Source: TPA_inf: Saccharomyces (lineage: Eukaryota). From it: DNA of 64,000 bases. The translations under genes were made by a program, and so were the position numbers. The notes under the pieces were generated by a model. That model saw nothing but the letters and a program-made list of their open reading frames with translations. It was not told the origin of the DNA and ran no database searches. Positions 1 to 53,000 of the stretch are shown in pieces; positions within the stretch are counted from its first letter, which is position 1; every line of letters begins with the position of its first letter. Where the stretch lies: positions 1 to 64,000 of the forward strand of contig BK006944.2 of NCBI GenBank assembly GCA_000146045.2, read 5' to 3'.

Positions 1-67
1 CACCACACCCACACACCACACCCACACACACACCACACCCACACACCACACCCACACACCACACCCA
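1..67. repeat. Telomeric C1-3A/TG1-3 repeat tract (chromosome end, left telomere orientation)
   Basis: Irregular (CACCCA/CACACA) C1-3A repeats run from base 1 to about 67. This is typical of a yeast left telomere read on the + strand. Confidence 0.9.
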
Positions 68-810
68 CTACTCTAACCCTATTCTAATCCAACCCTGATC
101 AACCTGTCTCCAAACCTACCCTCACATTACCCTACCTCTCCACTCGTTACCCTGCCCCACTCAACCATACCACTCCCACCCACCATCCATCTCTCTACTG
201 TCACCAGCCCACCGTCCACCATAACCGTTACCCTCCCATTACTCATATTTAACCCCACTACCACTTACCCTGCCATTACCCTACCATCCACCATGTCCTA
301 CTCACTGTACTGTTGTTCTACCCTCCATATTGAAACGTTAACAAATAATCGTAAATAATACACATATACTTACCCTACCACTCTAATCCCACCACACATC
401 ACATGCCATACTCACCTTCACTTGTATACTGATATGGTATACGCACACGGATGCTACGTATATACCACTCTCAACTTACCCTACTCTCACATTCCACTCC
501 ATGGCCCAGTCTCACTAAATCAGTACGATGCACTCACATCATTATTCACGGCACTTGCCTCAGCGGTTTATACCCTGTGCAATTTACCCATAAAACCCAC
601 GATTATCCACATTTTAATATCTATATCTCATTCAGCGGCTCCAAATATTGTATAACTGCTCTTAATGCATACATTATACCACTTTTACTCCATATACTAA
701 CCATTCAATTTATACACACTTATTTCAATATACCCACAAAATCACCACTAAAATTACCTAAACATAAAAATATTCTACTCTTCAACAATAATACATAAAC
801 ACACTCAATT
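68..810. repeat. Subtelomeric X element: combinatorial STR repeats (about 68-330) plus core X (about 330-810). No Y' element is present.
   Basis: Degenerate TTAGGG-like blocks (ctaaccct/ taccct / ccaccc) directly abut the telomere tract. A core-X-like AT-rich region with an ARS consensus follows. Boundaries are approximate. Confidence 0.55.
759..769 (-). promoter_or_regulatory. ARS consensus sequence (ACS) match within core X
   Basis: The minus strand reads TTTTATGTTTA, an 11/11 match to WTTTAYRTTTW. A TGACGTCA palindrome lies about 60 bp away at 829-836. Confidence 0.4.
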
Positions 811-3502: not shown

Positions 3503-5620
3503 CTATCTGGAAAAGAAGTCCTCAAAATTACTCCACCCGGAAATAGCTGTATCAAAGAAGGCACTTGGAGAACCTAATATATCATCGATGAAATTTTCCG
3601 AGAAATCTTCTAAAGGTCCCTCTAAATCATTTAGTATAGTTGTTAAACTGTTTTCAGTTGCATCATTTTCGGTTTCAGGCCCTTCATCGATATTTTTCAT
3701 TCCTTTGTTAAAAGCTCTTCTTCCTATTTTTTCCATTGATATAATAATAGAAAAGTAATAGGAGTTTTGCCAAATTTGAGTAAGAGGTTTCAACTTTTCT
3801 TGGTGAATATGATCAAATATGTTTTCCATTTCTTTAAATGCAATTTTCAGTGAAATACACTTATTGTGTGGACCCTCAAAGTCTCCAGGACATATAGAAT
3901 AAGTTAGTGCGGACGAATTTCTCTGAATGAATAATTGGATATCTTTATTTTCCATATACTGTAGAAAAATGGTATAAATTTGAATTAATGCTCTGAAAGC
4001 GTTCACATAAATAAGAAACAACGCATTGTTTAAATGGGGCCATTTTTTGGAGAGGCATAATGACTTAGAAGATAATTTGCTGTTGTCTAATTCAAAATAG
4101 GTCTCAAGGACATTAAAGCACAAATGTAATGAATTTAGTGGAGCCAGGACGCTAAAATTGAATATTCTCGCATCAAAATCTTGATGTGTTAAGGTATAAA
4201 GATTGGATAAACTTCCTATCATATGGAGAGTTGCATGCCATAATTGAAGTTCGGTGAACTCATTACCATTTAAATTAGATGCATTTAAGTAAAAATCCAA
4301 CGGCTTAAACATTTTAATGGTGAACTTTTTTAAGTCCTCGATGATGAGTGGAATGTCAGGCGGTTTCTCACGAGCATGAATTTGTTTCATAATATTTCTC
4401 AGTCTTAATGTTGTTTTATACAGAAGGATGTCCCCTGATGAAGAATAGTTTTCTAGACGTACCTTGTTTACAAAATCGTCGTTGATTCGGACCGGAATTC
4501 CTGTAGAGAGTGAAATTTTAACGTCCGTGAATAGGATCCATAACCACAATCTCTCCAAGTAAGGTATTTCCTCTATTGGATGATTTTTACTCAGATATAA
4601 ACGACGAAGATCTTCATTAAGGCCCATATGGATAGCTGTGTCAATTGTCAGACCATGAATAAATATGCAATGTGACTGATCGCCCCCGTCAAGACCCGCC
4701 ACATTTATGTACAGGTAACGTAAAAATAAAAATTGCACACGCTCAGTATAAAAAACTTTAGCCGAAACAAAAGACGTTAAAACTTTATGGAAGACTTCAA
4801 TAGCCTCTGGCACTTCTTTTGGATGGGATGCTAAGCACATAATGGCTGTCATAACACCCACTTTATAATAATTTTTTTTACTGTCCAGATTAAGGGAAAT
4901 TATTGTGTGCTGACCAGTTTTATGACTTCTTGGGCCTTTAACAAAACAATCTTGCAGATCCCTTAATACTTTTTCTTTATGAACAATTTGGTAACTATCG
5001 TAAAAATCGCTAGCAAAAAAATCAGTTAAATACTCACACAAAACTTCATAATTTGGAAGCGATTCACATAAGTATTCAATAACACTTGGTGAGCCTGAGT
5101 GCGGTGGGGCAGTCTCAATGGAACTAATCTCCGAGAGTGTTGAGTAATGATGCTCTCTTTTCCAGTTGTTACGGCTGAGTTTTAGGACTTGCCATATCTC
5201 CTCTCTGTATTTGGCAAAAGTATCTGTTTGAGTTGCTAATATTGCTCGATACGACGTTGGTCCATAAAGAATGTGCCTATTGTGCTTTGAAGATAAATAT
5301 CTCATGTTGGAAAGAGGGTTTTGTCCTTCGTGAATGTTAGGCTGGGATTGTTTTGTTAGCTGAGATTCAAGCTCTTCAATACGACGAGCCATCTCTAATT
5401 TTGAACATCTCCTGTATTTTTTCCTGAGTTGGTCCTCCATGGCGGAAGTGTTTTCTTTATATTCACATTGCTTTCGATTTCGAGAAGAGCAACTTCCACA
5501 GAACGGTCTTACTCGATCGCACTTGAGCTTTCTTACTCTACAAAAGTGGCACGACTTTGCAGGCTTTCTTCTACTCTGCCTATCTAATTTTTTTTTTTGA
5601 CTAAGTTCCGTATTCTTCAT
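3503..5620 (-). CDS. Zn(II)2Cys6 binuclear cluster transcription factor, uncharacterised (YKL222C-like)
   Basis: The N-terminus carries CHFCRVRKLKCDRVRPFCGSCSSRNRKQCEY, which is the CX2CX6CX5-9CX2CX6-8C Gal4-type motif. A fungal-specific TF middle-homology region follows. 705 aa. Confidence 0.85.
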   Translation of the reverse strand: MKNTELSQKKKLDRQSRRKPAKSCHFCRVRKLKCDRVRPFCGSCSSRNRKQCEYKENTSAMEDQLRKKYRRCSKLEMARRIEELESQLTKQSQPNIHEGQNPLSNMRYLSSKHNRHILYGPTSYRAILATQTDTFAKYREEIWQVLKLSRNNWKREHHYSTLSEISSIETAPPHSGSPSVIEYLCESLPNYEVLCEYLTDFFASDFYDSYQIVHKEKVLRDLQDCFVKGPRSHKTGQHTIISLNLDSKKNYYKVGVMTAIMCLASHPKEVPEAIEVFHKVLTSFVSAKVFYTERVQFLFLRYLYINVAGLDGGDQSHCIFIHGLTIDTAIHMGLNEDLRRLYLSKNHPIEEIPYLERLWLWILFTDVKISLSTGIPVRINDDFVNKVRLENYSSSGDILLYKTTLRLRNIMKQIHAREKPPDIPLIIEDLKKFTIKMFKPLDFYLNASNLNGNEFTELQLWHATLHMIGSLSNLYTLTHQDFDARIFNFSVLAPLNSLHLCFNVLETYFELDNSKLSSKSLCLSKKWPHLNNALFLIYVNAFRALIQIYTIFLQYMENKDIQLFIQRNSSALTYSICPGDFEGPHNKCISLKIAFKEMENIFDHIHQEKLKPLTQIWQNSYYFSIIISMEKIGRRAFNKGMKNIDEGPETENDATENSLTTILNDLEGPLEDFSENFIDDILGSPSAFFDTAISGWSNFEDFFSR

Positions 5621-6100
5621 TTTCTATTGATTATGGAAAGTATATTGCTACAGATTCATTATTTCCAAAGCAACCGTTATTGGTTACTAGTGCTGGACAA
5701 TTGATATGTAATCAGTTGCTATACATCTAGATCAAGTTGCTCTCTTCTTTTGACGTTTCGAATATTTTTTGACTTCAAACTTGAAGTGCACACTCATCTT
5801 TTCAAGGTTTTTTATGATTCTCCGTTTTATGGCTATTCCCGCTTTTAACATAGAGGCGATGCATGGAAGACAATAATTATTTTAAGGTGCTTTTGAGATC
5901 AAGATATTTTTAAGAGTACTCACTATGGGTATGAGATAATAAAATATATTCCGTTTTCTTATTATTTCCATTCTTCAGATTTTTACAGGCTAAACACACA
6001 TATATAAAAATGCCATCGGATATTCAATTCAGTATCCTGCTATTGATATAGAACTATATAACTGATACTAGAATATACTAATTCGTGCACTATTAACCGT

Positions 6101-7528
6101 TTGGCGATGTCCGAAGAACGGCATGAAGATCATCATAGGGATGTTGAAAATAAATTGAATTTAAATGGTAAAGACGATATTAACGGGAATACCTCAATCT
6201 CGATCGAGGTGCCTGATGGAGGATATGGGTGGTTTATTCTTCTTGCTTTTATTCTGTACAACTTTTCTACTTGGGGGGCAAATTCTGGTTATGCTATTTA
6301 TTTAGCGCATTATTTAGAGAATAATACTTTTGCTGGTGGGAGTAAATTAGACTATGCTTCTATAGGTGGGTTAGCATTCAGTTGTGGACTTTTTTTTGCC
6401 CCAGTTATAACATGGCTTTATCATATATTTTCAATTCAATTCATTATAGGCTTAGGGATACTGTTTCAAGGGGCAGCGCTACTGCTTGCAGCTTTTTCTG
6501 TCACACTCTGGGAAATTTATCTCACGCAAGGCGTTTTAATTGGATTCGGTTTAGCATTTATTTTCATACCCAGTGTCACACTCATCCCACTATGGTTCAG
6601 AAATAAAAGATCTTTAGCCTCTGGTATAGGAACTGCTGGAAGCGGGTTAGGTGGTATTGTCTTTAACTTGGGAATGCAAAGTATTCTACAAAAGAGGGGC
6701 GTTAAATGGGCGCTCATTGCTCAGTGCATAATATGCACATCACTTAGCACCATTGCGCTTATGTTGACCAGAACAACACATCAAGGCCTACGTCAACATA
6801 AGAGATCTTACAAATTTGAATTGCTAGATTATGATGTGCTTTCAAATTTCGCGGTCTGGTTACTTTTTGGATTTGTATCATTTGCTATGTTAGGATATGT
6901 TGTCCTTTTGTATTCCTTGTCTGATTTTACCGTTAGTTTAGGTTATACTAGTAAGCAAGGCTCATACGTATCGTGCATGGTGAGTGTCGGCTCTCTGCTG
7001 GGACGACCAATTGTGGGTCACATTGCTGATAAATATGGATCACTAACAGTTGGCATGATATTGCACCTTGTCATGGCCATCCTTTGTTGGGCCATGTGGA
7101 TACCTTGTAAAAATTTGGCCACTGCGATAGCTTTTGGATTATTGGTTGGTTCTATTATGGGAACAATTTGGCCAACAATTGCTTCAATTGTTACACGCAT
7201 TGTTGGTCTTCAAAAGCTTCCTGGTACCTTTGGTAGTACCTGGATTTTTATGGCGGCTTTTGCCTTAGTTGCCCCCATAATCGGTCTGGAACTTCGTTCA
7301 ACTGATACGAATGGAAACGATTATTATCGTACAGCAATATTCGTGGGTTTTGCGTACTTTGGTGTTAGTTTATGCCAATGGCTATTGAGAGGGTTTATAA
7401 TAGCTCGAGATGAGATTGCTGTGCGTGAAGCCTATTCAGCTGACCAAAATGAATTGCATTTAAACGTTAAGTTATCACATATGAGTAAATGTCTTTTTCG
7501 TTATAAACAATTACCTAGGAGAGTCTAA
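6101..7528 (+). CDS. MCH2: Major facilitator superfamily transporter, monocarboxylate-transporter homologue
   Basis: 475 aa with about 12 hydrophobic segments and an MFS/MCT-like architecture. It is transcribed divergently from the Zn-cluster gene. The name comes from chromosome XI gene order. Confidence 0.8.
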   Translation: MAMSEERHEDHHRDVENKLNLNGKDDINGNTSISIEVPDGGYGWFILLAFILYNFSTWGANSGYAIYLAHYLENNTFAGGSKLDYASIGGLAFSCGLFFAPVITWLYHIFSIQFIIGLGILFQGAALLLAAFSVTLWEIYLTQGVLIGFGLAFIFIPSVTLIPLWFRNKRSLASGIGTAGSGLGGIVFNLGMQSILQKRGVKWALIAQCIICTSLSTIALMLTRTTHQGLRQHKRSYKFELLDYDVLSNFAVWLLFGFVSFAMLGYVVLLYSLSDFTVSLGYTSKQGSYVSCMVSVGSLLGRPIVGHIADKYGSLTVGMILHLVMAILCWAMWIPCKNLATAIAFGLLVGSIMGTIWPTIASIVTRIVGLQKLPGTFGSTWIFMAAFALVAPIIGLELRSTDTNGNDYYRTAIFVGFAYFGVSLCQWLLRGFIIARDEIAVREAYSADQNELHLNVKLSHMSKCLFRYKQLPRRV

Positions 7529-9090: not shown

Positions 9091-11226
9091 TCACCAGCAT
9101 TGATACTCTTCAAAGTACTCAATGGCTTTTGCAGACTTATCTAAAACTATTTTTGCGGTTTCATTCCTCACTTTGTCAACAAAAATAGGAGGTCCACAGC
9201 AAACCACAGATAATGAGCCACTCAATTCAGCCGCTTCATGTAGAAGTTCCTTAACATTTGGTCGCCCGCAATGGAAAACAACACCATCAAAACCAAGTGG
9301 ATTGGCAGACTTTTCTAAAGTAGTTGCCACAACAGTGCCTTTTTCATCAGCCTTCTCATCCTGTTGAGAAATATCTAAACTATCACTAGGGGTTAATGAT
9401 GGGACTTCCATTGTGTTGTAGATGTGAAGCTGTACATTCAGATTTTCTAAACACATCAACTCCGGCTTATAAGCCTCGAGTACGTCGAATCCTCTAACTG
9501 CAATCACTAATTTTACAGATTGTTTTCCAGCAGCCGCTGACGTCTTTCCAAGTTTAATTGCATGTGCAATAGGTCCAGGCAAACCGGTACCTCCAGTGAG
9601 TAACAATACATTATTGTAATTATTGACCGGAGATGAAGAACCATATGGACCTTCTATAGCTAGTCTCATAGATGTCTTACCTCCATTGCGACACACATAC
9701 TTTTTGACAAGTCTTGTTACTCCCTTTTTTTCTTTCAGGATAATAACCAGTTCACCATTCTTGCTTACTGAATCCAAAACAGTAAATGGATGTGACTGCC
9801 AGAAGTACAGTGGATGTAAAAACGAAACGAAAACATATTGCCCAGGTTTGGCCCTCCATGGCCTTGCCGGTTTTTTAACTGTTAAACGAATGAGATCATC
9901 CCCGATTAGTTGTAGGGAAGCTTTGGGGAAACCAAAATAAGAAGCTTTGATAATTCTAATAATCCGGTCAACGATCCAAATCGCAATAGCAGTGTATATC
10001 CACTCAATGCCACTTAAACTAACAACATGCTCCCAACATGCATAAAAGAACATTGCACCAAGGACGATATGAAGAAAAAGAAAGGCTTCATAAAAATACT
10101 TCCTGAATACTGCAAAGGAAAAGAAAACCATTGTGCCAGCTAAACAAAGTGCTGCCACCCCGAATTGCCAATATAATCGGTTTTTACTTGTTGCCCAAGT
10201 TTTATTCGCTACCGTATAACTAGTATATGCAGAGCCATGAATCATAGCATCCAAAAACATCATTCTTCCCAACCATTTGTGAAACATAATGAAGGAAGTA
10301 TATTTAACCCCAGAAATATACTCGAGAAAGTTGTTTCTTCCCGCGAAAAGAACTATTAATGGAAAGTGTGCGAATGCGAGTACACCACTTCTGTCTGCCA
10401 CATATCGAGCAACTTGAACTCTACGAGACTTGAATATTATATTTTCAGGATCGTATTCATAACCGTATGCCAAAAAAACGGTATGAAGCACGAGATATCC
10501 AAGAATAATGATACCCTCTAATCTTGTAGGTAAATATCCTGTGAATATTCTAAAATAAGAGAAATCTGACGCATGTTTGCTTCCAATGGTAGGTAGAGTG
10601 AGGTATCCCCTTACATATCCCACAAGCTTTTGCTTCAATAGAACAGTTTTAAAGGGAGTGTAATTCATGCAATGAAGAACGCCTGCAAAAGCCATGATAG
10701 CGACAAAATAAGCACATATAATGCCACCATATATGTTTCCGACATCTAAGTTAGCATAGAAACCATGCAATGCATGATAGTAGGCTTTTCTTAACTGTGT
10801 ATCCATTTCAACTGGATATGTTAGGTTTGCACTGCCTTTGACATAGGGCGTCATATGCCTCGTTCCGTTGTTTAGAACGTCATAAAACTCAGAATTAGTC
10901 ATGTTCTGAAGAGCATCACTATAACTTGCACAGTTTTTTTTGATGGTACTAAATGTTTTTTCTAAGGTTTTATTCGAATAACCTTTTTCATCCAACGTTT
11001 CATAGATACAATACAGCATTGATTGAAACGCTGGTTCGTAAGAACATACTGGTGATGAACGCTTAGACTTGCTGGTATACTCCCAAGTAACTTTTTGAAA
11101 AATCCTCGTGCAGGCATTAGTGACAAGCAAGGGCACCTTGTTACGAATAACTGTCTTTGCAGGTGATGCTCTTGCTCCTGACAGGCAGAAAAGCAAAATA
11201 GCGCTCAAGATGGACGTCCAATGCAT
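9091..11226 (-). CDS. FRE2: Ferric/cupric reductase (NOX/FRE family transmembrane flavocytochrome)
   Basis: 711 aa with an N-terminal signal peptide and His-containing TM helices for bis-heme. It has an HPFT FAD-binding motif and a GGTGLPG NADPH-binding motif. Candidate Aft1 boxes lie upstream. Confidence 0.85.
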   Translation of the reverse strand: MHWTSILSAILLFCLSGARASPAKTVIRNKVPLLVTNACTRIFQKVTWEYTSKSKRSSPVCSYEPAFQSMLYCIYETLDEKGYSNKTLEKTFSTIKKNCASYSDALQNMTNSEFYDVLNNGTRHMTPYVKGSANLTYPVEMDTQLRKAYYHALHGFYANLDVGNIYGGIICAYFVAIMAFAGVLHCMNYTPFKTVLLKQKLVGYVRGYLTLPTIGSKHASDFSYFRIFTGYLPTRLEGIIILGYLVLHTVFLAYGYEYDPENIIFKSRRVQVARYVADRSGVLAFAHFPLIVLFAGRNNFLEYISGVKYTSFIMFHKWLGRMMFLDAMIHGSAYTSYTVANKTWATSKNRLYWQFGVAALCLAGTMVFFSFAVFRKYFYEAFLFLHIVLGAMFFYACWEHVVSLSGIEWIYTAIAIWIVDRIIRIIKASYFGFPKASLQLIGDDLIRLTVKKPARPWRAKPGQYVFVSFLHPLYFWQSHPFTVLDSVSKNGELVIILKEKKGVTRLVKKYVCRNGGKTSMRLAIEGPYGSSSPVNNYNNVLLLTGGTGLPGPIAHAIKLGKTSAAAGKQSVKLVIAVRGFDVLEAYKPELMCLENLNVQLHIYNTMEVPSLTPSDSLDISQQDEKADEKGTVVATTLEKSANPLGFDGVVFHCGRPNVKELLHEAAELSGSLSVVCCGPPIFVDKVRNETAKIVLDKSAKAIEYFEEYQCW

Positions 11227-11655: not shown

Positions 11656-14484
11656 AATTACGAATAAATGTACAATAATCATCCTGTTTGCATAGTAAAC
11701 TTCCAGTTAGAGTCACACAACGCAATGAATTTTGACAGTTTTCTGTGCGATATTCTTTGGTAAACGTAAAGAACAGGCAACTTTTGGTACAATGGATTCT
11801 AGCCCATATGGTTCATTTCTGGTGCATTCGCAAAGTCAGTATTTGTCTAGCTGTGTTTTCTGGCTGAGAGACATTATGATGTTATTCATTGTTATGGATA
11901 TCTCTGTAGCTCATGCTGCTTATTTCTCCCTAAAAAAGTTTTTTCTCTCGAATACATTCTTGACCATTTCATAGTGAAATTCTTGTACTTATTTAAAACC
12001 AAAAATGGAAGTATTCATACATCCCCCTATCAAAAACACTCAATAAGTTTCGAATTATTCGTTCGTCTAAACAGTGTCCAATACTCAAAGGGGTATTCAA
12101 GACGGCACAAAATCAGCATCTTCCCTTATCCGTGTTCCAGAAATACCACGCTAAGGTTTTTCCTCCTACAATCCATAAAATCATTAAGGAGGCAGCTTGA
12201 AAAATCTTGAAATTCAAAAGAGTTATCTTGGGCTAATCGAAATTAACGATAACCAGAGTAGAATATTCAAGATCACAGCTCCACCTTAGTTTCGAGGTTG
12301 CTCTCAATGGTCTAGCTTAGTCATGCTTTTTGTTAAACAAATCTTGCCTTTTCTGATATTCTATAGTGTGGTCCAATCCAGATATTGGCGCATCCTAAAC
12401 CAATTATAGTTCACTTATGAAGGGCAAATGAACACTCTTACCAGTTTCACAAATAATTAGTACTAGCTAGGCGGTCAAACTGACTAGCTTATTATAATAT
12501 TATCGATGTAACATTTTTCCATAGTGAGGGAGGAAAATAAACCTTAAAAAAATATGCAAGGATTCTAGATTTCAGGCTAGTCTTCAACCACTTTGCACTT
12601 CCGGATTAAAGGCTTTTATAGAAAACATCTTGGTTTGGGACTATATTGCTAGGTGAAAATTTCAAAATTGTACAAAAGATCATTCTTGTTTTTTTGCCTC
12701 ATTAGCTGATACAATGCGGAACTACATGGCGCTCTTTTATAAGCATCTACTATGGTACATTCTAAGTATGTGGATCTTGGTTAACACATAGACATTTTTT
12801 AACTTCTTGATATCGGTTCCGCTAAATTTGCTGATTATATTTGTTCACTAGGCCAGATCATAATGCCTGTAATATTGAGTACTTAATATCGATACTTGAT
12901 ATCCGAACAGTAAACGTTTGTCCGTAGTCATCGTGACTGTTGACGTATTAACTGCAAGAAATGATGGAAAAAATTTAGGTATATTTGCAGATGAAAACTC
13001 TAGAACACTGCCGTTGAAGAAAGAATGGCTTCAGCCGTCATGCTGTCTATCTGTTTGTAAACTTTTGGAAGTTTTACATATTTTGCACTATTTTCTTTAG
13101 CACGAGGTATATGTTTCTTTTTCAATAAAAATCGTCCTTTTGAAGAGCCAAGAACACTTTTGATTTGAGTGTATAGGATAATAATATTGCTTCTAGCGCT
13201 TAATGACCATGTTTGTACTTACCTCTCTCCCACCTTGTATAGGCGGATTGGCTATAATAACGCGTTATATGCATCAAAATATGTAGTTCTCTTTCATTTT
13301 AGCAAATTCGTAATACGACTCCAGATAATAATACCAAGTCATTTTTGGGTACCAGTGAGAATTGGGTCTCATAACTGATTGTGAATCTCAATATTACAGT
13401 GATGTGAGGGAAAATACTTAATTAAAAAGGAAAAAAGAAATGTTACTTTTCTATTTTAAATGAAGATTCAGTTTGTTAAACATGGATTTTCCATAGCATT
13501 AGGTTTTTATATTTCCAAATCCATTTTATTTAAACTTTTGAATCATGGGATATAAAGTTACATGCAATAGGAAAAGTTGTCATGAACTCCATTTGAAACT
13601 AAGGAAGAACAGTAACAGAAGTTTTTTGTTATGAATTATTCATGAACTTAGAGCTGCTAATTTGGAGTGGGTCCAAGTCATCATTTTTTTGCGGGGCTAT
13701 GATTACACAATCTGCGCACATAATATAATCGGCTTTGTATCTTTAACATCAAGTAAGACCTTGAAAATTTATTCTATCTTTAGACAATGAACGGAGTTAC
13801 AGAACGATTTTCGTCTTCCCCATTTGATCAAAAACTAACTGAAAATTGCAGTGTTGTAATTTTTGAAACGCCGAACGAAGTTTTCACCAACTTAACAGAA
13901 GCAGAAGACCGTTCTTGAACTAGGCTGCACTGTAGAACGCTGAGCACTTTACCATTCACCACGCTATTTTCAACGGAAAAATCAATAAATCCTTGAATTG
14001 CCTTCATTTAAATGCCAATTACACCTCGTATATCTAAAATTGCTGACATATATTATTTCTTTTTGATACTTCGCTGGGAATCTCACAGAAAGGTGGCTCT
14101 AGAATACAGAAGAACAAAGTACATAGTCCGTAATTGATGTATGAAGTTAATGGGAAAGTACGAATGGTACTGTCCACTCAAGTAATACTTTGAGATTGAA
14201 ATTTGAAGCTTTTTCAAGTAAATACCATAATGATACCAACAATGATACCTACAATTTTAAATATCGTAATTGTTAACTTGATTTTTCATAATCTCATTTA
14301 CCGACTTGCAATACTAAACGGGTACCAGCAGACAATAGAAAACCTTCTCATTTGAAATGAATTCTAATTGTGAAGGCGGAAATGCGTACTTTGAGGAACG
14401 TCTATTGTCGTATAAAAGTTTTACAATTAACTAAGCCAATGTATGATACGCCCGCTTGGCGGCTTTTTCTTTCCGACTATATAA

Positions 14485-15708
14485 ATGCAAATAGTCAGAA
14501 GTTGTAACTCCAATAACAAACCCCTCATACCGTCCTCAAATTGGCATATCGCTATCAGAATGAGAGGCGATGGGGTTAAAGATAGGAGTATAGATGTGTT
14601 ATCCCTCAAACATTTCGAATCCCAGAAAGTTGTTCTGCCTCAAGACCTTTTCATGGATAACTTCACCTGGATGTTTTATGAGTTCTTCAAGTGCTTCACG
14701 TTTCGTACCTGGTTGCTATTATTACTGCTAATGTGGTTGCCAGGTTTTCTTTCGCAGATAAAGTCCATCAATCGGATTTTTCCGTTTAAACTTTGTATTT
14801 TAGTCTCATGCCTAGTGGGGATATTTTTACCCAATATTTATTCATTCTCTCATAAAAGTGTGTTAACGAATCAACTTACTCAGTTCTCCAAAGAAATTGT
14901 TGAACATGCACCAGGTACTGATACTCATGATTGGGAAACAGTTGCGGCAAATCTAAATTCTTACTTCTATGAAAATAAAGCTTGGAATACTGAGTACTTC
15001 TTTTTCAATGCTGCAGAGTGTCAAAAAGCATTCAGAAAAGTTCTTCTCGAACCATTCTCTGTGAAGAAAGATGAATCTTCGAAAATAAAATCATTTGGGG
15101 ATTCTGTCCCCTACATCGAAGAGGCCTTGCAAGTCTATTCCACAGAATTTGACAAAAAGTGGAAGTTGTTCAATACTGAGAAAGTGTGGAGCCCTGATAA
15201 CTTGGAACATGTTCAGCTCCCCAAGAAAACTTATCGTTATAAGTTTACCTGGGTTCTCAAGAGGATTTTCAATCTCTGGCTTTTTCCAGCATTTATTCTG
15301 TTTCTGGCTTGTATCTATGTGTCATGGGATAAGGGCCATCTATTTCGTATCTTGTGTTGTGGGGGAGGTTTTCTCCTTATGGTAAGAGTTTTTCAAAATA
15401 TGAGGCCCTTTTCCATGCACATGGAAGACAAAATGCAGTTCTTGTCAACGATTATAAATGAGCAAGAAAGTGGTGCGAATGGATGGGACGAAATTGCAAA
15501 GAAAATGAACAGGTACTTGTTTGAGAAAAAAGTCTGGACTAGTGAAGAGTTTTTCTTTGATGGGATTGACTGTGAATGGTTTTTTAACCACTTCTTTTAC
15601 CGCCTTCTATCTACAAAGAAACCTATGTTTGATAGACCTCTAAACGTGGAACTATGGCCATACATTAAAGAAGCGCAATTGACCCGCAAACAGGCGCCTC
15701 CCGTGTAG
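14485..15708 (+). CDS. COS9: COS/DUP380 family subtelomeric membrane protein
   Basis: 407 aa. It shows conserved COS-family blocks (HDWETVAANLNSYFYENKAWNTEYFFFNAAECQKAF...) including the internally duplicated DUP motif. The specific paralogue is assigned from its position. Confidence 0.75.
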   Translation: MQIVRSCNSNNKPLIPSSNWHIAIRMRGDGVKDRSIDVLSLKHFESQKVVLPQDLFMDNFTWMFYEFFKCFTFRTWLLLLLLMWLPGFLSQIKSINRIFPFKLCILVSCLVGIFLPNIYSFSHKSVLTNQLTQFSKEIVEHAPGTDTHDWETVAANLNSYFYENKAWNTEYFFFNAAECQKAFRKVLLEPFSVKKDESSKIKSFGDSVPYIEEALQVYSTEFDKKWKLFNTEKVWSPDNLEHVQLPKKTYRYKFTWVLKRIFNLWLFPAFILFLACIYVSWDKGHLFRILCCGGGFLLMVRVFQNMRPFSMHMEDKMQFLSTIINEQESGANGWDEIAKKMNRYLFEKKVWTSEEFFFDGIDCEWFFNHFFYRLLSTKKPMFDRPLNVELWPYIKEAQLTRKQAPPV

Positions 15709-22233: not shown

Positions 22234-24084
22234 ATGTCGTCGTCAATTACAGATGAGAAAATATCTGGTGAACAGCAACAACCTGCTGGCAGAAAACTAT
22301 ACTATAACACAAGTACATTTGCAGAGCCTCCTCTAGTGGACGGAGAAGGTAACCCTATAAATTATGAGCCGGAAGTTTACAACCCGGATCACGAAAAGCT
22401 ATACCATAACCCATCACTGCCTGCACAATCAATTCAGGATACAAGAGATGATGAATTGCTGGAAAGAGTTTATAGCCAGGATCAAGGTGTAGAGTATGAG
22501 GAAGATGAAGAGGATAAGCCAAACCTAAGCGCTGCGTCCATTAAAAGTTATGCTTTAACGAGATTTACGTCCTTACTGCACATCCACGAGTTTTCTTGGG
22601 AGAATGTCAATCCCATACCCGAACTGCGCAAAATGACATGGCAGAATTGGAACTATTTTTTTATGGGTTATTTTGCGTGGTTGTCTGCGGCTTGGGCCTT
22701 CTTTTGCGTTTCAGTATCAGTCGCTCCATTGGCTGAACTATATGACAGACCAACCAAGGACATCACCTGGGGGTTGGGATTGGTGTTATTTGTTCGTTCA
22801 GCAGGTGCTGTCATATTTGGTTTATGGACAGATAAGTCTTCCAGAAAGTGGCCGTACATTACATGTTTGTTCTTATTTGTCATTGCACAACTCTGTACTC
22901 CATGGTGTGACACATACGAGAAATTTCTGGGCGTAAGGTGGATAACCGGTATTGCTATGGGAGGAATTTACGGATGTGCTTCTGCAACAGCGATTGAAGA
23001 TGCACCTGTGAAAGCACGTTCGTTCCTATCAGGTCTATTTTTTTCTGCTTACGCTATGGGGTTCATATTTGCTATCATTTTTTACAGAGCCTTTGGCTAC
23101 TTTAGGGATGATGGCTGGAAAATATTGTTTTGGTTTAGTATTTTTCTACCAATTCTACTAATTTTCTGGAGATTGTTATGGCCTGAAACGAAATACTTCA
23201 CCAAGGTTTTGAAAGCCCGTAAATTAATATTGAGTGACGCAGTGAAAGCTAATGGTGGCGAGCCTCTACCAAAAGCCAACTTTAAACAAAAGATGGTATC
23301 CATGAAGAGAACAGTTCAAAAGTACTGGTTGTTGTTCGCATATTTGGTTGTTTTATTGGTGGGTCCAAATTACTTGACTCATGCTTCTCAAGACTTGTTG
23401 CCAACCATGCTGCGTGCCCAATTAGGCCTATCCAAGGATGCTGTCACTGTCATTGTAGTGGTTACCAACATCGGTGCTATTTGTGGGGGTATGATATTTG
23501 GACAGTTCATGGAAGTTACTGGAAGAAGATTAGGCCTATTGATTGCATGCACAATGGGTGGTTGCTTCACCTACCCTGCATTTATGTTGAGAAGCGAAAA
23601 GGCTATATTAGGTGCCGGTTTCATGTTATATTTTTGTGTCTTTGGTGTCTGGGGTATCCTGCCCATTCACCTTGCAGAGTTGGCCCCTGCTGATGCAAGG
23701 GCTTTGGTTGCCGGTTTATCTTACCAGCTAGGTAATCTAGCTTCTGCAGCGGCTTCCACGATTGAGACACAGTTAGCTGATAGATACCCATTAGAAAGAG
23801 ATGCCTCTGGTGCTGTGATTAAAGAAGATTATGCCAAAGTTATGGCTATCTTGACTGGTTCTGTTTTCATCTTCACATTTGCTTGTGTTTTTGTTGGCCA
23901 TGAGAAATTCCATCGTGATTTGTCCTCTCCTGTTATGAAGAAATATATAAACCAAGTGGAAGAATACGAAGCCGATGGTCTTTCGATTAGTGACATTGTT
24001 GAACAAAAGACGGAATGTGCTTCAGTGAAGATGATTGATTCGAACGTCTCAAAGACATATGAGGAGCATATTGAGACCGTTTAA
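22234..24084 (+). CDS. JEN1: Monocarboxylate (lactate/pyruvate)/H+ symporter, MFS sialate:H+ symporter family
   Basis: 616 aa with 12 TM segments and hydrophilic N- and C-termini. Confidence 0.9.
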   Translation: MSSSITDEKISGEQQQPAGRKLYYNTSTFAEPPLVDGEGNPINYEPEVYNPDHEKLYHNPSLPAQSIQDTRDDELLERVYSQDQGVEYEEDEEDKPNLSAASIKSYALTRFTSLLHIHEFSWENVNPIPELRKMTWQNWNYFFMGYFAWLSAAWAFFCVSVSVAPLAELYDRPTKDITWGLGLVLFVRSAGAVIFGLWTDKSSRKWPYITCLFLFVIAQLCTPWCDTYEKFLGVRWITGIAMGGIYGCASATAIEDAPVKARSFLSGLFFSAYAMGFIFAIIFYRAFGYFRDDGWKILFWFSIFLPILLIFWRLLWPETKYFTKVLKARKLILSDAVKANGGEPLPKANFKQKMVSMKRTVQKYWLLFAYLVVLLVGPNYLTHASQDLLPTMLRAQLGLSKDAVTVIVVVTNIGAICGGMIFGQFMEVTGRRLGLLIACTMGGCFTYPAFMLRSEKAILGAGFMLYFCVFGVWGILPIHLAELAPADARALVAGLSYQLGNLASAAASTIETQLADRYPLERDASGAVIKEDYAKVMAILTGSVFIFTFACVFVGHEKFHRDLSSPVMKKYINQVEEYEADGLSISDIVEQKTECASVKMIDSNVSKTYEEHIETV

Positions 24085-50050: not shown

Positions 50051-53000
50051 ATGCTAGAACGGATTCAGCAGCTGGTAAATGCAGTGAACGATCCACGCTC
50101 AGATGTGGCCACTAAGAGACAAGCCATCGAGCTGCTAAATGGGATTAAATCATCAGAGAATGCATTGGAAATCTTTATATCATTGGTCATCAACGAGAAT
50201 TCAAATGATTTGTTGAAGTTTTACGGACTGTCCACATTGATAGAATTGATGACGGAGGGCGTGAACGCTAATCCAAATGGTTTGAATCTGGTAAAGTTTG
50301 AAATAACCAAATGGCTCAAATTTCAAGTTTTGGGCAATAAGCAAACTAAGCTGCCTGACTTTTTAATGAATAAGATTTCTGAAGTGCTGACTACTTTGTT
50401 TATGTTAATGTACAGTGATTGTAATGGAAACCAGTGGAACAGTTTTTTTGACGATCTGATGAGTCTATTCCAAGTGGATTCGGCTATTTCCAATACGAGC
50501 CCGTCTACCGATGGTAACATTCTTCTAGGTCTTGAATTTTTTAACAAGCTCTGTTTGATGATTAATTCGGAGATTGCTGACCAAAGCTTTATTAGGTCTA
50601 AGGAATCTCAGTTAAAAAATAACAATATAAAAGATTGGATGCGTGATAACGATATCATGAAATTGAGTAATGTGTGGTTTCAGTGTTTAAAACTGGACGA
50701 ACAAATTGTGTCACAATGTCCCGGATTGATCAATTCTACCTTGGATTGTATTGGGAGTTTTATCTCATGGATCGATATTAATTTAATTATTGATGCAAAT
50801 AATTATTATCTGCAATTAATCTATAAATTTTTAAATCTTAAAGAAACCAAAATTTCATGTTATAATTGCATACTGGCCATCATCTCTAAAAAAATGAAAC
50901 CAATGGACAAACTGGCTTTTCTGAATATGATCAATTTGACCAACGAATTGACTTACTATCATCAAGCCATATCAATGAATCCCCAAATTATTACATTTGA
51001 TAATTTAGAAGTCTGGGAAAGTTTGACCAAGTTGATTACTTCCTTTGGCATAGAATTTACTATCATTATTGAACAAGTCAACGATGATCAAAAATTGGAT
51101 ACATTATACAAACAATCGGTCATTTCAAATGTTGATTCCATATTATTGGAGAAAATAATACCAATACTTTTGGAATTTATGAATAATGAGTTTGATTCAA
51201 TAACAGCAAAAACCTTCCCATTCTGGTCAAATTATCTGGCTTTCTTGAAAAAATATAAAGCATCTTCACCAAATTTTGTACCATTGCATAAGGATTTTCT
51301 AGATAATTTCCAACAAATTTGCTTTAAAAGAATGAAGTTTTCAGACGACGAGGTCACACAGGATGATTTTGAGGAATTCAACGAAACCGTAAGATTTAAA
51401 TTAAAAAATTTCCAGGAGATCATCGTGGTAATTGACCCAAGTCTGTTTTTAAATAACATTTCTCAAGAAATTTCAGCAAACCTAATGAATTGTAAAAACG
51501 AAAGCTGGCAAATTTTCGAGCTAACTATTTATCAAATCTTCAATTTAAGTGAATGTACCAAGAACAACTATTTCGGTTTGAACAAGAATGAAATTATGAC
51601 CTCACAACCTTCGCTAACTTTAGTACGATTTTTAAATGAATTGTTAATGATGAAGGATTTCTTATTAGCCATTGATAACGAACAAATCCAAATACTATTC
51701 ATGGAATTAATTGTGAAAAACTACAATTTCATATTTTCAACTAGTGCTAACACAGCAAATGCTACTGATGATGATGAAAAGTATCTATTAATATTGAATA
51801 TTTTCATGAGCTCATTTGCTATGTTCAATAAAAGAGAAAACGTCAGACTAAGGTCATGGTATTTATTTACAAGATTCTTGAAGTTGACAAGAATCAATTT
51901 GAAAAAAATCCTCTTTGCCAACAAAAATTTGGTTAATGAAATAACTAATAAGATAAGTCCTCTACTTCACATAAAAGTAACATCTATCAACGCCCAAGGG
52001 ACGGATGACAATGATACAATTTTTGATAATCAGTTGTACATATTTGAGGGTATTGGGTTTATAATCACATTGAATAATAGCAGTCAGGAGCTCACTGCTG
52101 CCACTGCCAACACCCCCATCGATTACGATATATTGGACCAGATATTAACTCCGCTATTTACACAATTAGAGGGTTGTATTACCCAAGGAGCTTCGCCAGT
52201 TGTGATTCTGGAATGTCATCACATTCTTATGGCTATTGGTACTTTAGCGAGAGGTTTGCACATTGGTCTCGTCCCTGAGAATCAGGTCAACAATATGGTT
52301 GTCAACAAAAAATTAATCAATGACTCTTTAATCCATAAATTCTCTAATATAGCTGAGGTTATATTAGTAACATTCTCTTTTTTCAATAAGTTCGAAAATA
52401 TCCGCGATGCATCTAGGTTTACCTTTGCCAGGTTAATTCCAATTTTAAGTAATAAAATTTTACCATTTATCAATAAATTGATTGAATTGATCTTATCGTC
52501 CACAGATTTAAAATCATGGGAGATGATTGATTTTCTTGGGTTCTTATCTCAACTGATTCATATGTTTCACACGGACACAGACTGTTATCAGCTGTTTAAC
52601 CAGTTACTTACTCCGCTTATCAACAAAGTCCATTCTATTATCGAAGAGATTGATGAACAACACGACCAACAATCAAGCAGTAACAAACCTATAGACACTG
52701 CAGTCACAGCCACCTCCGTAAATAAGAATATCGTGGTCACCGATTCGTATAGAGATAAAATACTATTGAAAAAGGCTTACTGCACATTTTTACAGTCATT
52801 TACTAATAATTCCGTCACTTCGATACTATTGTCAGATATAAACAGAGCAATCCTGCCGGTCATATTAAACGATTTGGTCACCTATACGCCGCAAGAGATC
52901 CAGGAAACATCAATGATGAAAGTGTCACTCAATGTATTGTGCAATTTTATCAAATGTTTTGGGAATGGGACCTGCTTGGATAATGACGACATCAATAAAG

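What the first reader, a model, noticed from the sequence alone, without database searches (positions are those of the whole stretch)
3503..7528. Divergent pair: uncharacterised Zn2Cys6 transcription factor and MCH2 MFS transporter share a 480-bp promoter
The Zn-cluster gene (minus strand, ends 5620) and MCH2 (plus strand, starts 6101) are transcribed divergently from a short shared intergenic region. In fungi, pathway-specific Zn2Cys6 regulators are often placed next to, and divergently from, the transporter or catabolic gene they control. GAL4-like, PUT3, PPR1 and the many Aspergillus clusters are examples. Both genes lack an assigned physiological role, so a regulator-target relationship is a testable hypothesis. 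I did not find a clean CGG-Nx-CCG everted or inverted repeat in 5621..6100, so the prediction rests on gene arrangement only.
Basis: inference. Interest (0 to 1): 0.5.

Follow-up and report, generated by a model that had tools for sequence, protein, structure and literature searches.

The report
Zinc-cluster regulator beside its likely transporter target
Two uncharacterised yeast genes, a DNA-binding regulator (YKL222C) and a membrane transporter (MCH2), are transcribed back to back, and the best-conserved part of their shared promoter matches the regulator's own published binding motif, so it probably controls itself and the transporter, though nobody has tested this.

Summary
A 705-aa Zn2Cys6 gene (3503-5620, minus) and a 473-aa MFS gene (plus) diverge from one promoter. 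One correction: MCH2 starts at the conserved ATG 6107, not the TTG at 6101, so the spacer is 486 bp.

- **Conserved arrangement.** The divergent pair is kept in five other Saccharomyces loci on different chromosome ends, and in K. lactis and K. marxianus. It is absent from the Lachancea, Torulaspora and Zygosaccharomyces copies sampled.
- **Motif match.** The published in-vitro motif of Ykl222c is AACGGA(A/G)ATAA. It hits the promoter four times, all on one strand. Shuffles give 0.22 hits, and 0 of 5000 reach four.
- **Conserved footprint.** Two hits, 17 bp apart (5816-5843), form the most conserved block of the promoter. Both Kluyveromyces promoters carry an equivalent tandem CGG(A/G)AAT pair, 16-18 bp apart on the same strand.
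- **Direct repeats.** This explains why no palindromic CGG-Nx-CCG was found. The closest solved DNA-binding domain is Hap1, which binds direct repeats.

The best reading is a self-regulating local activator of MCH2. No experimental test was found. Yrr1, Yrm1 and Pdr8 share the core motif and remain rivals. This is a new member of a known kind, of moderate interest.

The parts
3503..5620 (-). Coding sequence of the Zn2Cys6 transcription factor (YKL222C, 705 aa)
   Evidence: ORF. Pfam Zn_clus (residues 23-58) and Fungal_trans (200-462). 99% identical to S. cerevisiae proteins. The C-terminal F-rich acidic tail is conserved down to K. lactis.
5465..5551 (-). Codons 24-52: the six-cysteine zinc cluster C-X2-C-X6-C-X6-C-X2-C-X7-C. 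It is followed by a linker and a heptad-rich stretch (residues ~60-91).
   Evidence: Read from the translation. All six cysteines are invariant in alignment A2. Residues 17-91 align to the Hap1 DNA-binding domain, linker and coiled coil (1HWT, E 2.3e-6).
5621..6106 (.). Shared 486-bp divergent promoter
   Evidence: Sequence. Aligned with five other Saccharomyces loci.
5816..5843 (-). Module M1: two direct matches to the Ykl222c in-vitro motif, AGCGGGAATAG (5833-5843, 12.2 bits) and AACGGAGAATC (5816-5826, 10.0 bits). The CGG triplets are 17 bp apart start to start.
   Evidence: The hits rank 3 and 13 of 127,980 positions in the window. This is the most conserved 28-nt stretch of the promoter, with 22/28 positions invariant in 5 species against 31% overall. 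It contains the two longest invariant runs. It is kept with the same spacing in all Saccharomyces loci.
5945..5972 (-). Module M2: a weaker second copy in the same register, AATGGAAATAA (5962-5972, 8.3 bits) and AACGGAATATA (5945-5955, 9.2 bits)
   Evidence: 15/28 positions are invariant. Which half-site carries a true CGG differs between species (S. cerevisiae, S. kudriavzevii, S. eubayanus). M2 matches M1 at 18/28 positions by my own count. The repeat finder did not report it as a repeat.
6001..6008 (+). TATATAAA, the probable TATA box of MCH2, 99-106 bp upstream of the ATG
   Evidence: Sequence. Third longest invariant run of the promoter alignment (6000-6006). Its function is inferred.
6107..7528 (+). 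Coding sequence of the MFS transporter MCH2 (473 aa)
   Evidence: MFS_1. Orthologues at 40-86% identity across budding yeasts are named Mch2 or MCT family.

Best explanation
YKL222C encodes a Gal4-type zinc-cluster activator. It probably binds as a dimer to direct repeats of an extended CGG half-site, (A/G)CGG(A/G)(A/G)AT, in the promoter it shares with MCH2. The main site is M1 (5816-5843), about 210 bp from its own ATG and about 280 bp from the MCH2 ATG. A weaker copy, M2, lies about 150 bp upstream of MCH2. From there it would drive both its own transcription (a positive feedback loop) and that of the transporter. The trigger is presumably a small molecule that Mch2 carries or exports. The two genes form a self-contained regulator-transporter cassette that is inherited, relocated between chromosome ends and amplified as a unit.

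**Shown here:** the gene arrangement, its conservation, and the motif matches with their conservation.

**Taken from the literature:** the in-vitro specificity of Ykl222c and the co-amplification of the two genes.

**Inferred:** binding in vivo, dimer binding to the direct repeat, activation rather than repression, autoregulation, and the existence of a ligand.
For: **1. The domains are those of a DNA-binding regulator and a transporter**.

**2. The divergent pair is conserved.**
- It has a 450-490 bp spacer in S. kudriavzevii, S. eubayanus and two further Saccharomyces-like loci. It sits on different chromosome ends in these species.
- It also occurs in K. lactis and K. marxianus. There the Zn-cluster neighbour is a full-length homologue: 29-31% identity over 500-626 aa, E 5e-70 and 9e-68.
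- PMC2715888 shows the same K. lactis neighbours.

**3. The published motif of Ykl222c hits the promoter.**
- Gordan et al. 2011 (PMC3334620, supplementary file 2) give the protein-binding-microarray matrix, consensus AACGGA(A/G)ATAA.
- Of the 39 best hits in the 64-kb window, 4 lie in the 486-bp promoter, all on the minus strand.
- Dinucleotide-preserving shuffles give 0.22 hits on average, and 0 of 5000 reach 4.

**4. The two best hits form the most conserved block of the promoter**. The only substitution inside a site core is A/G at the position where the matrix accepts both.

**5. The same architecture appears in unalignable Kluyveromyces promoters.**
- Each carries a tandem CGG(A/G)AAT pair, 16-18 bp apart, plus a third site about 200 bp nearer the transporter, all on the same strand relative to the genes.
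- These are 3 of 5 and 3 of 4 such words in the respective loci.
- K. marxianus has AGCGGAAATAA, which scores 15.1 of a possible 15.8 bits.
- The composite CGGRAAT-N9-11-CGGRRAW occurs 10 times in the 305 kb held. Nine of these are in the Zn/MCH2 promoters.

**6. The closest solved DNA-binding domain is Hap1**, which binds direct CGG repeats.

**7. A C-terminal acidic, phenylalanine-rich tail is conserved**. This fits an activation domain.

**8. The two genes are amplified together** in flor, wine and bioethanol strains.
Against: - **No experiment connects the two genes** in the papers I could search.
- **The motif core is not unique to Ykl222c.** The Yrr1, Yrm1, Pdr8 and Ynr063w matrices share CGGA(A/G)AT and also score the promoter. 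Yrr1's best hit ranks 3rd in the window.
- **None of the S. cerevisiae sites is a perfect consensus.** One of the four has TGG instead of CGG.
- **The full matrix is not enriched in the K. lactis promoter** (1 hit, P = 0.38). Only the core is.
- **The CGGRAAT and composite patterns were defined after seeing the sites.** Their counts therefore overstate significance. Only K. marxianus was examined after the word was fixed.
- **The adjacency is not universal.** MCH2-like genes of L. fermentati, L. thermotolerans, T. globosa and Z. parabailii have no Zn-cluster neighbour, yet they still carry single core sites upstream.
- **Either gene can be lost on its own.** MCH2 has a premature stop in one S. 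eubayanus assembly while the factor is intact. The factor is split in locus L006.
- **A different role has been suggested for Ykl222c.** It has been reported to co-purify with ribosomes (cited).
Confidence: 0.55

Rival explanations
1. The conserved CGGA(A/G)AT elements are bound by another zinc-cluster factor of the drug or xenobiotic-response group (Yrr1, Yrm1, Pdr8 or similar). MCH2 belongs to that regulon, and YKL222C is a neighbour that shares the promoter without controlling MCH2.
For: - The Yrr1, Yrm1 and Pdr8 matrices share the core and score the same sites.
- Gordan et al. report that the Yrr1 motif is most similar to the Yrm1 and Ykl222c motifs.
- MCH2 promoters in species without the neighbouring factor also carry core sites.
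- MCH2 is reported as induced by vanillin together with SNQ2, a drug-pump gene.
Against: - All three true-CGG sites in S. cerevisiae have A then A/G before the CGG. That is the flank the Ykl222c matrix prefers.
- Ykl222c gives the most hits: 4 of 39, against 2 for Yrr1 and 1 each for Yrm1 and Pdr8.
- Yrr1 strongly disfavours site 1, because its matrix needs T where the site has A (my reading of the matrix).
- This rival does not explain why the tandem architecture tracks the presence of the adjacent factor. The composite is found in every pair-bearing locus and in none of the pair-less MCH2 promoters.
- A search for papers naming both Yrr1 and MCH2 found no reported regulation.
Confidence: 0.2
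2. There is no regulator-target relationship. The two genes stay together because a compact bidirectional promoter is hard to split and because subtelomeric blocks move as segments. The motif matches are promoter elements for the factor's own gene only (autoregulation), or are chance.
For: - Adjacency of one Zn-cluster gene to one transporter is roughly what chance predicts for a genome with about 55 such factors (my estimate).
- A ferric reductase gene also travels with the pair in S. cerevisiae and lies near it in K. marxianus. Block inheritance is therefore real.
- Each gene can be lost alone.
- The pair is not conserved in four other genera sampled.
Against: - The arrangement survived the Saccharomyces-Kluyveromyces split, while the other flanking genes largely differ between the loci; only a ferric reductase recurs, and not in K. 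lactis.
- The promoter sequence is otherwise unalignable between the genera, yet it keeps the same tandem sites in the same orientation.
- Shuffle tests reject chance for the motif density.
- M2 and the third Kluyveromyces site lie nearer the transporter than the factor gene.
Confidence: 0.2
3. Ykl222c is not primarily a transcription factor but a ribosome-associated or trafficking protein. Its DNA-binding domain is then vestigial or used for something else.
For: - Secondary reports say it co-purifies with ribosomes (cited).
- An overexpression phenotype in endocytic trafficking is cited.
- Overexpression causes morphological defects.
Against: - All six zinc-binding cysteines and the fungal transcription-factor middle domain are intact and conserved.
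- The purified domain gave a specific CGG motif on protein-binding microarrays.
- High-throughput co-purification and overexpression phenotypes are weak evidence.
Confidence: 0.05

Closest known systems
PUL4 (YNR063W) - PUL3 (YNR062C), the regulator and transporter of the pulcherrimin gene cluster
   Same: A previously uncharacterised Zn2Cys6 factor sits next to a transporter gene and is treated as its putative regulator (PMC12342472 abstract). Its in-vitro motif TCGGAGA(A/T) has the same CGGAGA core as Ykl222c.
   Different: PUL4 and PUL3 belong to a four-gene cluster with two biosynthetic enzymes in Kluyveromyces and Metschnikowia, and the transported molecule (iron-bound pulcherrimin) is known. 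Here no enzyme gene travels consistently with the pair, and the substrate is unknown.
Hap1 (Cyp1), the heme-activated zinc-cluster factor
   Same: It is the closest solved DNA-binding domain by sequence (1HWT, E 2.3e-6). The alignment runs through the zinc cluster, linker and coiled coil. From established knowledge, Hap1 binds direct rather than palindromic CGG repeats as an asymmetric dimer. That matches the direct orientation of the sites in M1.
   Different: Hap1 sites have 6 bp between CGG triplets. M1 has 14 bp, and the Kluyveromyces pairs have 13-15 bp. Hap1 is unlinked to its targets and controls a large regulon. Dimer binding of Ykl222c is inferred, not shown.
Yrr1 / Yrm1 / Pdr8, zinc-cluster regulators of drug-efflux transporters
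   Same: The in-vitro core CGGA(A/G)AT is nearly identical. From my knowledge of Le Crom et al. 2002 and Hikkel et al. 2003, which I could not re-read here, they activate MFS and ABC transporter genes, and Yrr1 activates its own gene.
   Different: They are unlinked to their targets and control many genes. The 5' flank preference differs in detail.
MAL loci (MALx3 activator, MALx1 permease, MALx2 maltase)
   Same: From my own knowledge: a subtelomeric cassette containing a Zn2Cys6 activator next to the transporter it induces. The cassette is present at several chromosome ends and is copy-number variable between strains. YKL222C-MCH2 likewise sits on different chromosome ends in different species and is amplified in flor and bioethanol strains.
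   Different: In MAL loci the divergent promoter is shared by the permease and the maltase, not by the activator. The inducer (maltose) and pathway are known, and the binding sites differ.

Membership tests
Fungal Zn2Cys6 (Gal4-type) transcription factors | Six-cysteine binuclear cluster CX2CX6CX5-12CX2CX6-8C near the N-terminus | tested here: met
   Residues 24-52 read C-X2-C-X6-C-X6-C-X2-C-X7-C. Pfam PF00172 scores 27.2 bits against a cutoff of 21. All six cysteines are invariant in alignment A2.
Fungal Zn2Cys6 (Gal4-type) transcription factors | Middle homology region (fungal-specific transcription factor domain) | tested here: met
   PF04082 scores 101 bits over residues 200-462, covering 2-261 of 262 profile positions.
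Fungal Zn2Cys6 (Gal4-type) transcription factors | Linker plus coiled-coil dimerisation element after the cluster | tested here: inconclusive
   Residues 17-91 align to the Hap1 cluster, linker and coiled coil, and the stretch LEMARRIEELESQL looks heptad-like. No coiled-coil predictor or dimer model was run.
Fungal Zn2Cys6 (Gal4-type) transcription factors | Sequence-specific binding to CGG-containing DNA | tested here: met
   Not measured by me. The published protein-binding-microarray matrix Ykl222c_zhu was retrieved from PMC3334620 supplementary file 2.
Fungal Zn2Cys6 (Gal4-type) transcription factors | Occupies promoters and changes transcription in vivo | not testable with these tools
   No binding or expression data were found in the searchable library.
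Local regulator-transporter gene pair (as PUL4-PUL3, MAL loci, Aspergillus catabolic clusters) | Regulator and transporter adjacent and divergently transcribed | tested here: met
   3503-5620 (minus) and 6107-7528 (plus), with a 486-bp spacer.
Local regulator-transporter gene pair (as PUL4-PUL3, MAL loci, Aspergillus catabolic clusters) | Adjacency conserved across distant species | tested here: met
   Kept in five other Saccharomyces loci, K. lactis and K. marxianus. Not kept for the MCH2-like copies sampled in Lachancea (2 species), Torulaspora and Zygosaccharomyces. Conservation is therefore real but not universal.
Local regulator-transporter gene pair (as PUL4-PUL3, MAL loci, Aspergillus catabolic clusters) | The regulator's own recognition motif is present and conserved in the target promoter | tested here: met
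   Four matrix hits against 0.22 expected, with 0 of 5000 shuffles reaching that count. The two best lie in the most conserved block. Equivalent tandem sites occur in Kluyveromyces. Caveat: other factors share the core.
Local regulator-transporter gene pair (as PUL4-PUL3, MAL loci, Aspergillus catabolic clusters) | Transporter expression depends on the regulator | not testable with these tools
   Needs deletion or induction expression data. Datasets exist, such as 'YKL222C constitutively active (cI-VP16)' and 'ykl222c deletion Iyer 2007', both named.
Monocarboxylate-transporter-like MFS proteins (MCT family) | MFS fold and closest relatives annotated as MCT family | tested here: met
   PF07690 scores 79 bits. 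Homologues are named 'MCT family MFS transporter' or Mch2.
Monocarboxylate-transporter-like MFS proteins (MCT family) | Transports monocarboxylates | not testable with these tools
   The literature quoted says involvement in monocarboxylate transport has not been shown. The substrate is unknown.

The most novel reading that the evidence does not exclude
YKL222C-MCH2 is an ancient, self-contained, autoregulated sensor-transporter cassette. It predates the Saccharomyces-Kluyveromyces split. Its factor recognises an unusual direct repeat of extended CGG half-sites with about 14 bp between triplets, with Hap1-like geometry but much wider spacing. The cassette hops between chromosome ends and is amplified as an adaptive unit in flor and bioethanol yeasts. 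Because regulator and target would rise in copy number together, amplification would raise transporter output more than linearly.
Probability: 0.3. Interest if true: 0.55.

Novelty: new member of a known kind. Interest (0 to 1): 0.4.

Why it matters
- **It gives two uncharacterised genes a concrete hypothesis.** Both are core S. cerevisiae genes without an assigned role. A specific regulator-target link, with named base pairs to mutate, makes their function testable.
- **It bears on strain adaptation.** The pair is repeatedly co-amplified in flor, wine and Brazilian bioethanol strains. MCH2 has been linked to survival late in fermentation and to vanillin resistance. Knowing what switches it on would help explain those adaptations and could be useful in strain engineering.
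- **It would add a binding mode.** Confirmation would add a second example, after Hap1, of a zinc-cluster factor using direct repeats, here with an unusually long spacer.
- **It does not change any general principle.** Regulator-next-to-transporter pairs are well known in fungi.

Tried and rejected
**Searches for more homologues and more contexts**
- A profile search with an alignment of six homologues found nothing beyond the single-sequence search. The synteny survey therefore had to go through MCH2 homologues instead. All context look-ups are now used.

**Literature that was not available or held nothing**
- Badis 2008 and Zhu 2009, the original microarray papers, are not held.
- The Hackett 2020 supplements do not mention either gene.
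- The 2025 paper on transcription-factor binding versus regulatory targets is not held.
- Wang 2017, on the yrr1 deletant in vanillin, does not mention MCH2 in its main text.

**Motif and repeat checks with weak or negative results**
- The full 11-column matrix is not enriched in the K. lactis promoter. Only the 9-column core is, because the Kluyveromyces sites carry T or G before the CGG.
- The repeat finder does not report M1 and M2 as a repeat family. Their 18/28 match is my own in-register count and is weak evidence.
- The Urc2, Tea1, Eds1, Cep3 and Aro80 matrices were tested as alternative binders. They have no good site in the promoter.
- I did not transcribe all 150 curated matrices. 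An unbiased all-factor scan was therefore not done.

**Other checks**
- The 543-aa gene upstream of the Z. parabailii MCH2-like gene was tested as a possible degenerate homologue of the factor. It shows no similarity.
- Bacterial promoter and terminator scans, RNA family searches and structure prediction were judged irrelevant and not run.

Full report
**What is there**

The window begins with C1-3A telomere repeats, so it is a chromosome end. The first genes are:
- a seripauperin gene at 1810-2181;
- a 705-aa ORF at 3503-5620 on the minus strand, with a Zn2Cys6 cluster and the fungal transcription-factor middle domain;
- an MFS transporter ORF on the plus strand ending at 7528;
- a ferric reductase at 9091-11226 on the minus strand.

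Database hits at 99% identity are S. cerevisiae proteins. One carries locus tag H804_YJM1383K00001, and the MFS relatives are named Mch2p. From my own knowledge this is the left end of chromosome XI, with YKL222C, MCH2/YKL221W and FRE2.

Position 6101 is a TTG. The first ATG is at 6107, and it is conserved in the four aligned Saccharomyces sequences that reach the start (L006 ends before it), while the TTG is not. It gives the 473 aa seen in the S. mikatae and S. kudriavzevii proteins. The shared spacer is therefore 5621-6106, 486 bp.

**Is the arrangement more than chance?**

In one genome it is not. By my estimate, with about 55 zinc-cluster genes one or two divergent transporter neighbours are expected. 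Conservation changes that picture.

The same divergent pair, with a 450-490 bp spacer, is present in:
- a locus 88% identical to S. cerevisiae (L005);
- a locus 78% identical (L006);
- S. kudriavzevii, at the right end of a 902-kb chromosome (L001, L002);
- S. eubayanus, at the start of a 764-kb chromosome (L003).

So the pair has moved between chromosome ends as a unit.

Outside Saccharomyces, K. lactis has an MCH2-like gene diverging from a 655-aa zinc-cluster gene. That gene aligns with YKL222C over 626 residues at 29% identity, E 5e-70. A figure legend in PMC2715888 shows the same neighbours. K. marxianus has the same pair near a chromosome end, at 31% identity, E 9e-68. A ferric reductase lies about 5 kb beyond the transporter there.

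The MCH2-like copies I sampled in L. fermentati, L. thermotolerans, T. globosa and Z. parabailii have other neighbours. These yeasts have several MCH2 paralogues, so orthology is uncertain.

**The promoter**

That is correct.

Ykl222c has, however, been assayed on protein-binding microarrays. The curated matrix in Gordan et al. 2011 (PMC3334620, supplementary file 2) has the consensus AACGGA(A/G)ATAA, a single extended half-site.

Scanning the 64-kb window with that matrix gave these results:
- Four of the 39 best positions are in the 486-bp promoter, ranking 3, 13, 26 and 37 of 127,980. All are on the minus strand.
- Dinucleotide-preserving shuffles of the promoter give 0.22 hits on average. 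None of 5000 reaches four.

The hits pair up in the same 17-bp register:
- M1 is AGCGGGAATAG-CCATAA-AACGGAGAATC (5843 down to 5816).
- M2 is AATGGAAATAA-TAAGAA-AACGGAATATA (5972 down to 5945).

In the alignment of five species, M1 is the most conserved 28-nt stretch of the promoter. It has 22/28 invariant positions against 31% overall, and it holds the two longest invariant runs, CTATTCCCGC and TCCGTTTT. The third longest run is the TATA box at 6000-6006. The one substitution inside a core is G to A at the matrix position that accepts both.

M2 is less conserved, and the half-site that carries a true CGG changes between species. M2 matches M1 at 18/28 positions by my count, and the repeat finder does not flag it. 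I treat it as a secondary element.

**Independent support from Kluyveromyces**

The Kluyveromyces promoters cannot be aligned with the Saccharomyces one. Even so:
- K. lactis has three of its locus's five CGGRAAT words in the 662-bp spacer.
- K. marxianus has three of four in its 607-bp spacer.
- All lie on the same strand relative to the two genes as in S. cerevisiae.
- In each species two words form a tandem pair, 18 and 16 bp apart. A third lies about 200 bp nearer the transporter.
- K. marxianus carries AGCGGAAATAA, which scores 15.1 of a possible 15.8 bits.
- Core-matrix hits exceed shuffles, with P = 0.009 for K. lactis and 0.0004 for K. marxianus.

The composite CGGRAAT-N9-11-CGGRRAW occurs ten times in the 305 kb I hold. 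Nine are in the nine loci that carry the pair, and one is inside a T. globosa coding sequence.

Three caveats apply:
- The word and the composite were defined after I had seen the sites. Only K. marxianus was examined afterwards.
- K. lactis and K. marxianus are sister species.
- The full matrix is not enriched in K. lactis, because its sites have T before the CGG.

**How it most likely works**

Ykl222c has an intact zinc cluster followed by a linker and a heptad-rich stretch. By sequence, the closest solved structure is the Hap1 DNA-binding domain, aligned from the cluster through the coiled coil (1HWT, E 2.3e-6). From established knowledge, Hap1 is the textbook zinc-cluster protein that binds direct CGG repeats.

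I therefore propose the following:
- A Ykl222c dimer binds the direct repeat in M1, and more weakly M2.
- It activates both its own gene and MCH2.
- The conserved acidic, phenylalanine-rich C-terminus would serve as the activation domain.

Shown here are the arrangement, the motif matches and their conservation. The in-vitro specificity comes from the literature. Binding in vivo, the dimer geometry, activation and autoregulation are all inferred. I put this at 0.55.

**Rivals**

- *Another factor binds the sites (0.2).* The core CGGA(A/G)AT is shared by Yrr1, Yrm1, Pdr8 and Ynr063w, and their matrices also score the promoter. MCH2 promoters without the adjacent factor still carry single core sites. 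MCH2 is reported as induced by vanillin alongside SNQ2. So a drug-response factor could be the real binder. Against this, the 5' flanks fit Ykl222c best, Ykl222c gives the most hits, and the tandem architecture tracks the presence of the adjacent factor.
- *No regulatory link (0.2).* The link could be mere block inheritance or autoregulation only.
- *Not a transcription factor (0.05).* A ribosome or trafficking role has been suggested from high-throughput data. This sits poorly with a conserved DNA-binding domain that gave a specific in-vitro motif.

**Evidence that cuts the other way**

- No experiment linking the two genes turned up.
- One S. eubayanus assembly has a premature stop in MCH2 with the factor intact.
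- Locus L006 has the factor split in two with MCH2 apparently intact.
- So neither gene strictly requires the other to be retained.

**Comparison with what is known**

- The closest analogue is PUL4-PUL3, a zinc-cluster putative regulator next to a transporter. Its motif also has a CGGAGA core.
- The MAL loci are another subtelomeric, copy-variable activator-transporter cassette (my knowledge).
- Yrr1, Yrm1 and Pdr8 share the motif and the habit of controlling transporters, but they are unlinked to their targets.
- Membership in the Zn2Cys6 family is met on every sequence criterion. The defining functional criterion of a regulator-target pair, dependence of expression, could not be tested.

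**Verdict**

The finding is real, the genes are already annotated, and the arrangement is already visible in public annotation. New here is that the factor's own published motif coincides with the best-conserved promoter block. The same tandem, same-strand architecture also recurs in Kluyveromyces. That turns a guess from gene order into a specific, cheap-to-test hypothesis.

It is a new member of a known kind. Interest is moderate (0.4). It is raised somewhat by the repeated co-amplification of the pair in flor, wine and bioethanol yeasts and by the possibly unusual direct-repeat spacing.

Noticed in passing
window 1-360: C1-3A telomere repeats (GC skew -0.78) are followed by subtelomeric sequence, so the window starts at a chromosome end. 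The gene pair lies only 3.5-7.5 kb from the telomere, so subtelomeric silencing may affect its expression.
   Followed up: partly
window 9091-11226 (-); L015 12547-13431 (+); L005 2069-4204: A ferric reductase gene lies just beyond MCH2 in S. cerevisiae and in the 88%-identical locus. One also lies about 5 kb beyond the MCH2-like gene in K. marxianus. The literature reports FRE2 amplified together with MCH2 and YKL222C in flor and bioethanol strains. A link to iron is possible but was not examined.
   Followed up: partly
window 6182-6192 (+): A fifth strong match to the Ykl222c matrix, AACGGGAATAC (11.8 bits, rank 5 in the window), lies inside the MCH2 coding sequence 75 bp after the ATG. It is on the opposite strand to the promoter sites. 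Its conservation was not checked.
   Followed up: no
L003 6108-7529 (-); L006 1763-3881; L002 1819-3236: Loss-of-function alleles appear in relatives. MCH2 has an in-frame stop at about codon 250 in one S. eubayanus assembly. The zinc-cluster gene is split into 470 + 219 aa in L006. MCH2 is broken in the older S. kudriavzevii assembly but intact in the newer one, so that last case may be an assembly error.
   Followed up: partly
L004 163-2277 and 4072-5969; L007 5039-13287; L008; L009: Unidentified yeasts from sequencing-run assemblies carry tandem arrays of two or three YKL222C-like zinc-cluster genes (26-35% identity). These have no MFS neighbour, so the family has expanded locally in some lineages.
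   Followed up: no
L011 4735-9132; L017/L018 3101-8967; L013 4619-8371: In Lachancea the MCH2-like gene sits between a nucleoside hydrolase gene and a phosphoribosyltransferase gene, next to DIT1/DIT2-like genes. In T. globosa it diverges from an amidase gene. These neighbours might hint at the transported substrate, but they are not consistent between genera.
   Followed up: no
window 22234-24084 (+): A 616-aa sugar-transporter-family MFS protein lies about 15 kb from MCH2. From my own knowledge it is JEN1, the real lactate/pyruvate permease. MCH2 is only similar to monocarboxylate permeases.
   Followed up: no
window 5658-5667 and 5961-5970: An exact 10-nt direct repeat, ATTATTTCCA, occurs in the promoter. 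Its reverse complement, TGGAAATAAT, looks like the motif with TGG in place of CGG. One copy is part of M2, and the other lies 40 bp from the YKL222C ATG.
   Followed up: no
window 52145-52155 (-), 3536-3546 (+), 13790-13800 (+): Other top matrix hits in the window lie inside coding sequences. One is in the 3' end of YKL222C itself. Another is about 690 bp upstream of a DUP/COS-family gene (14485-15708). They are probably chance matches.
   Followed up: no
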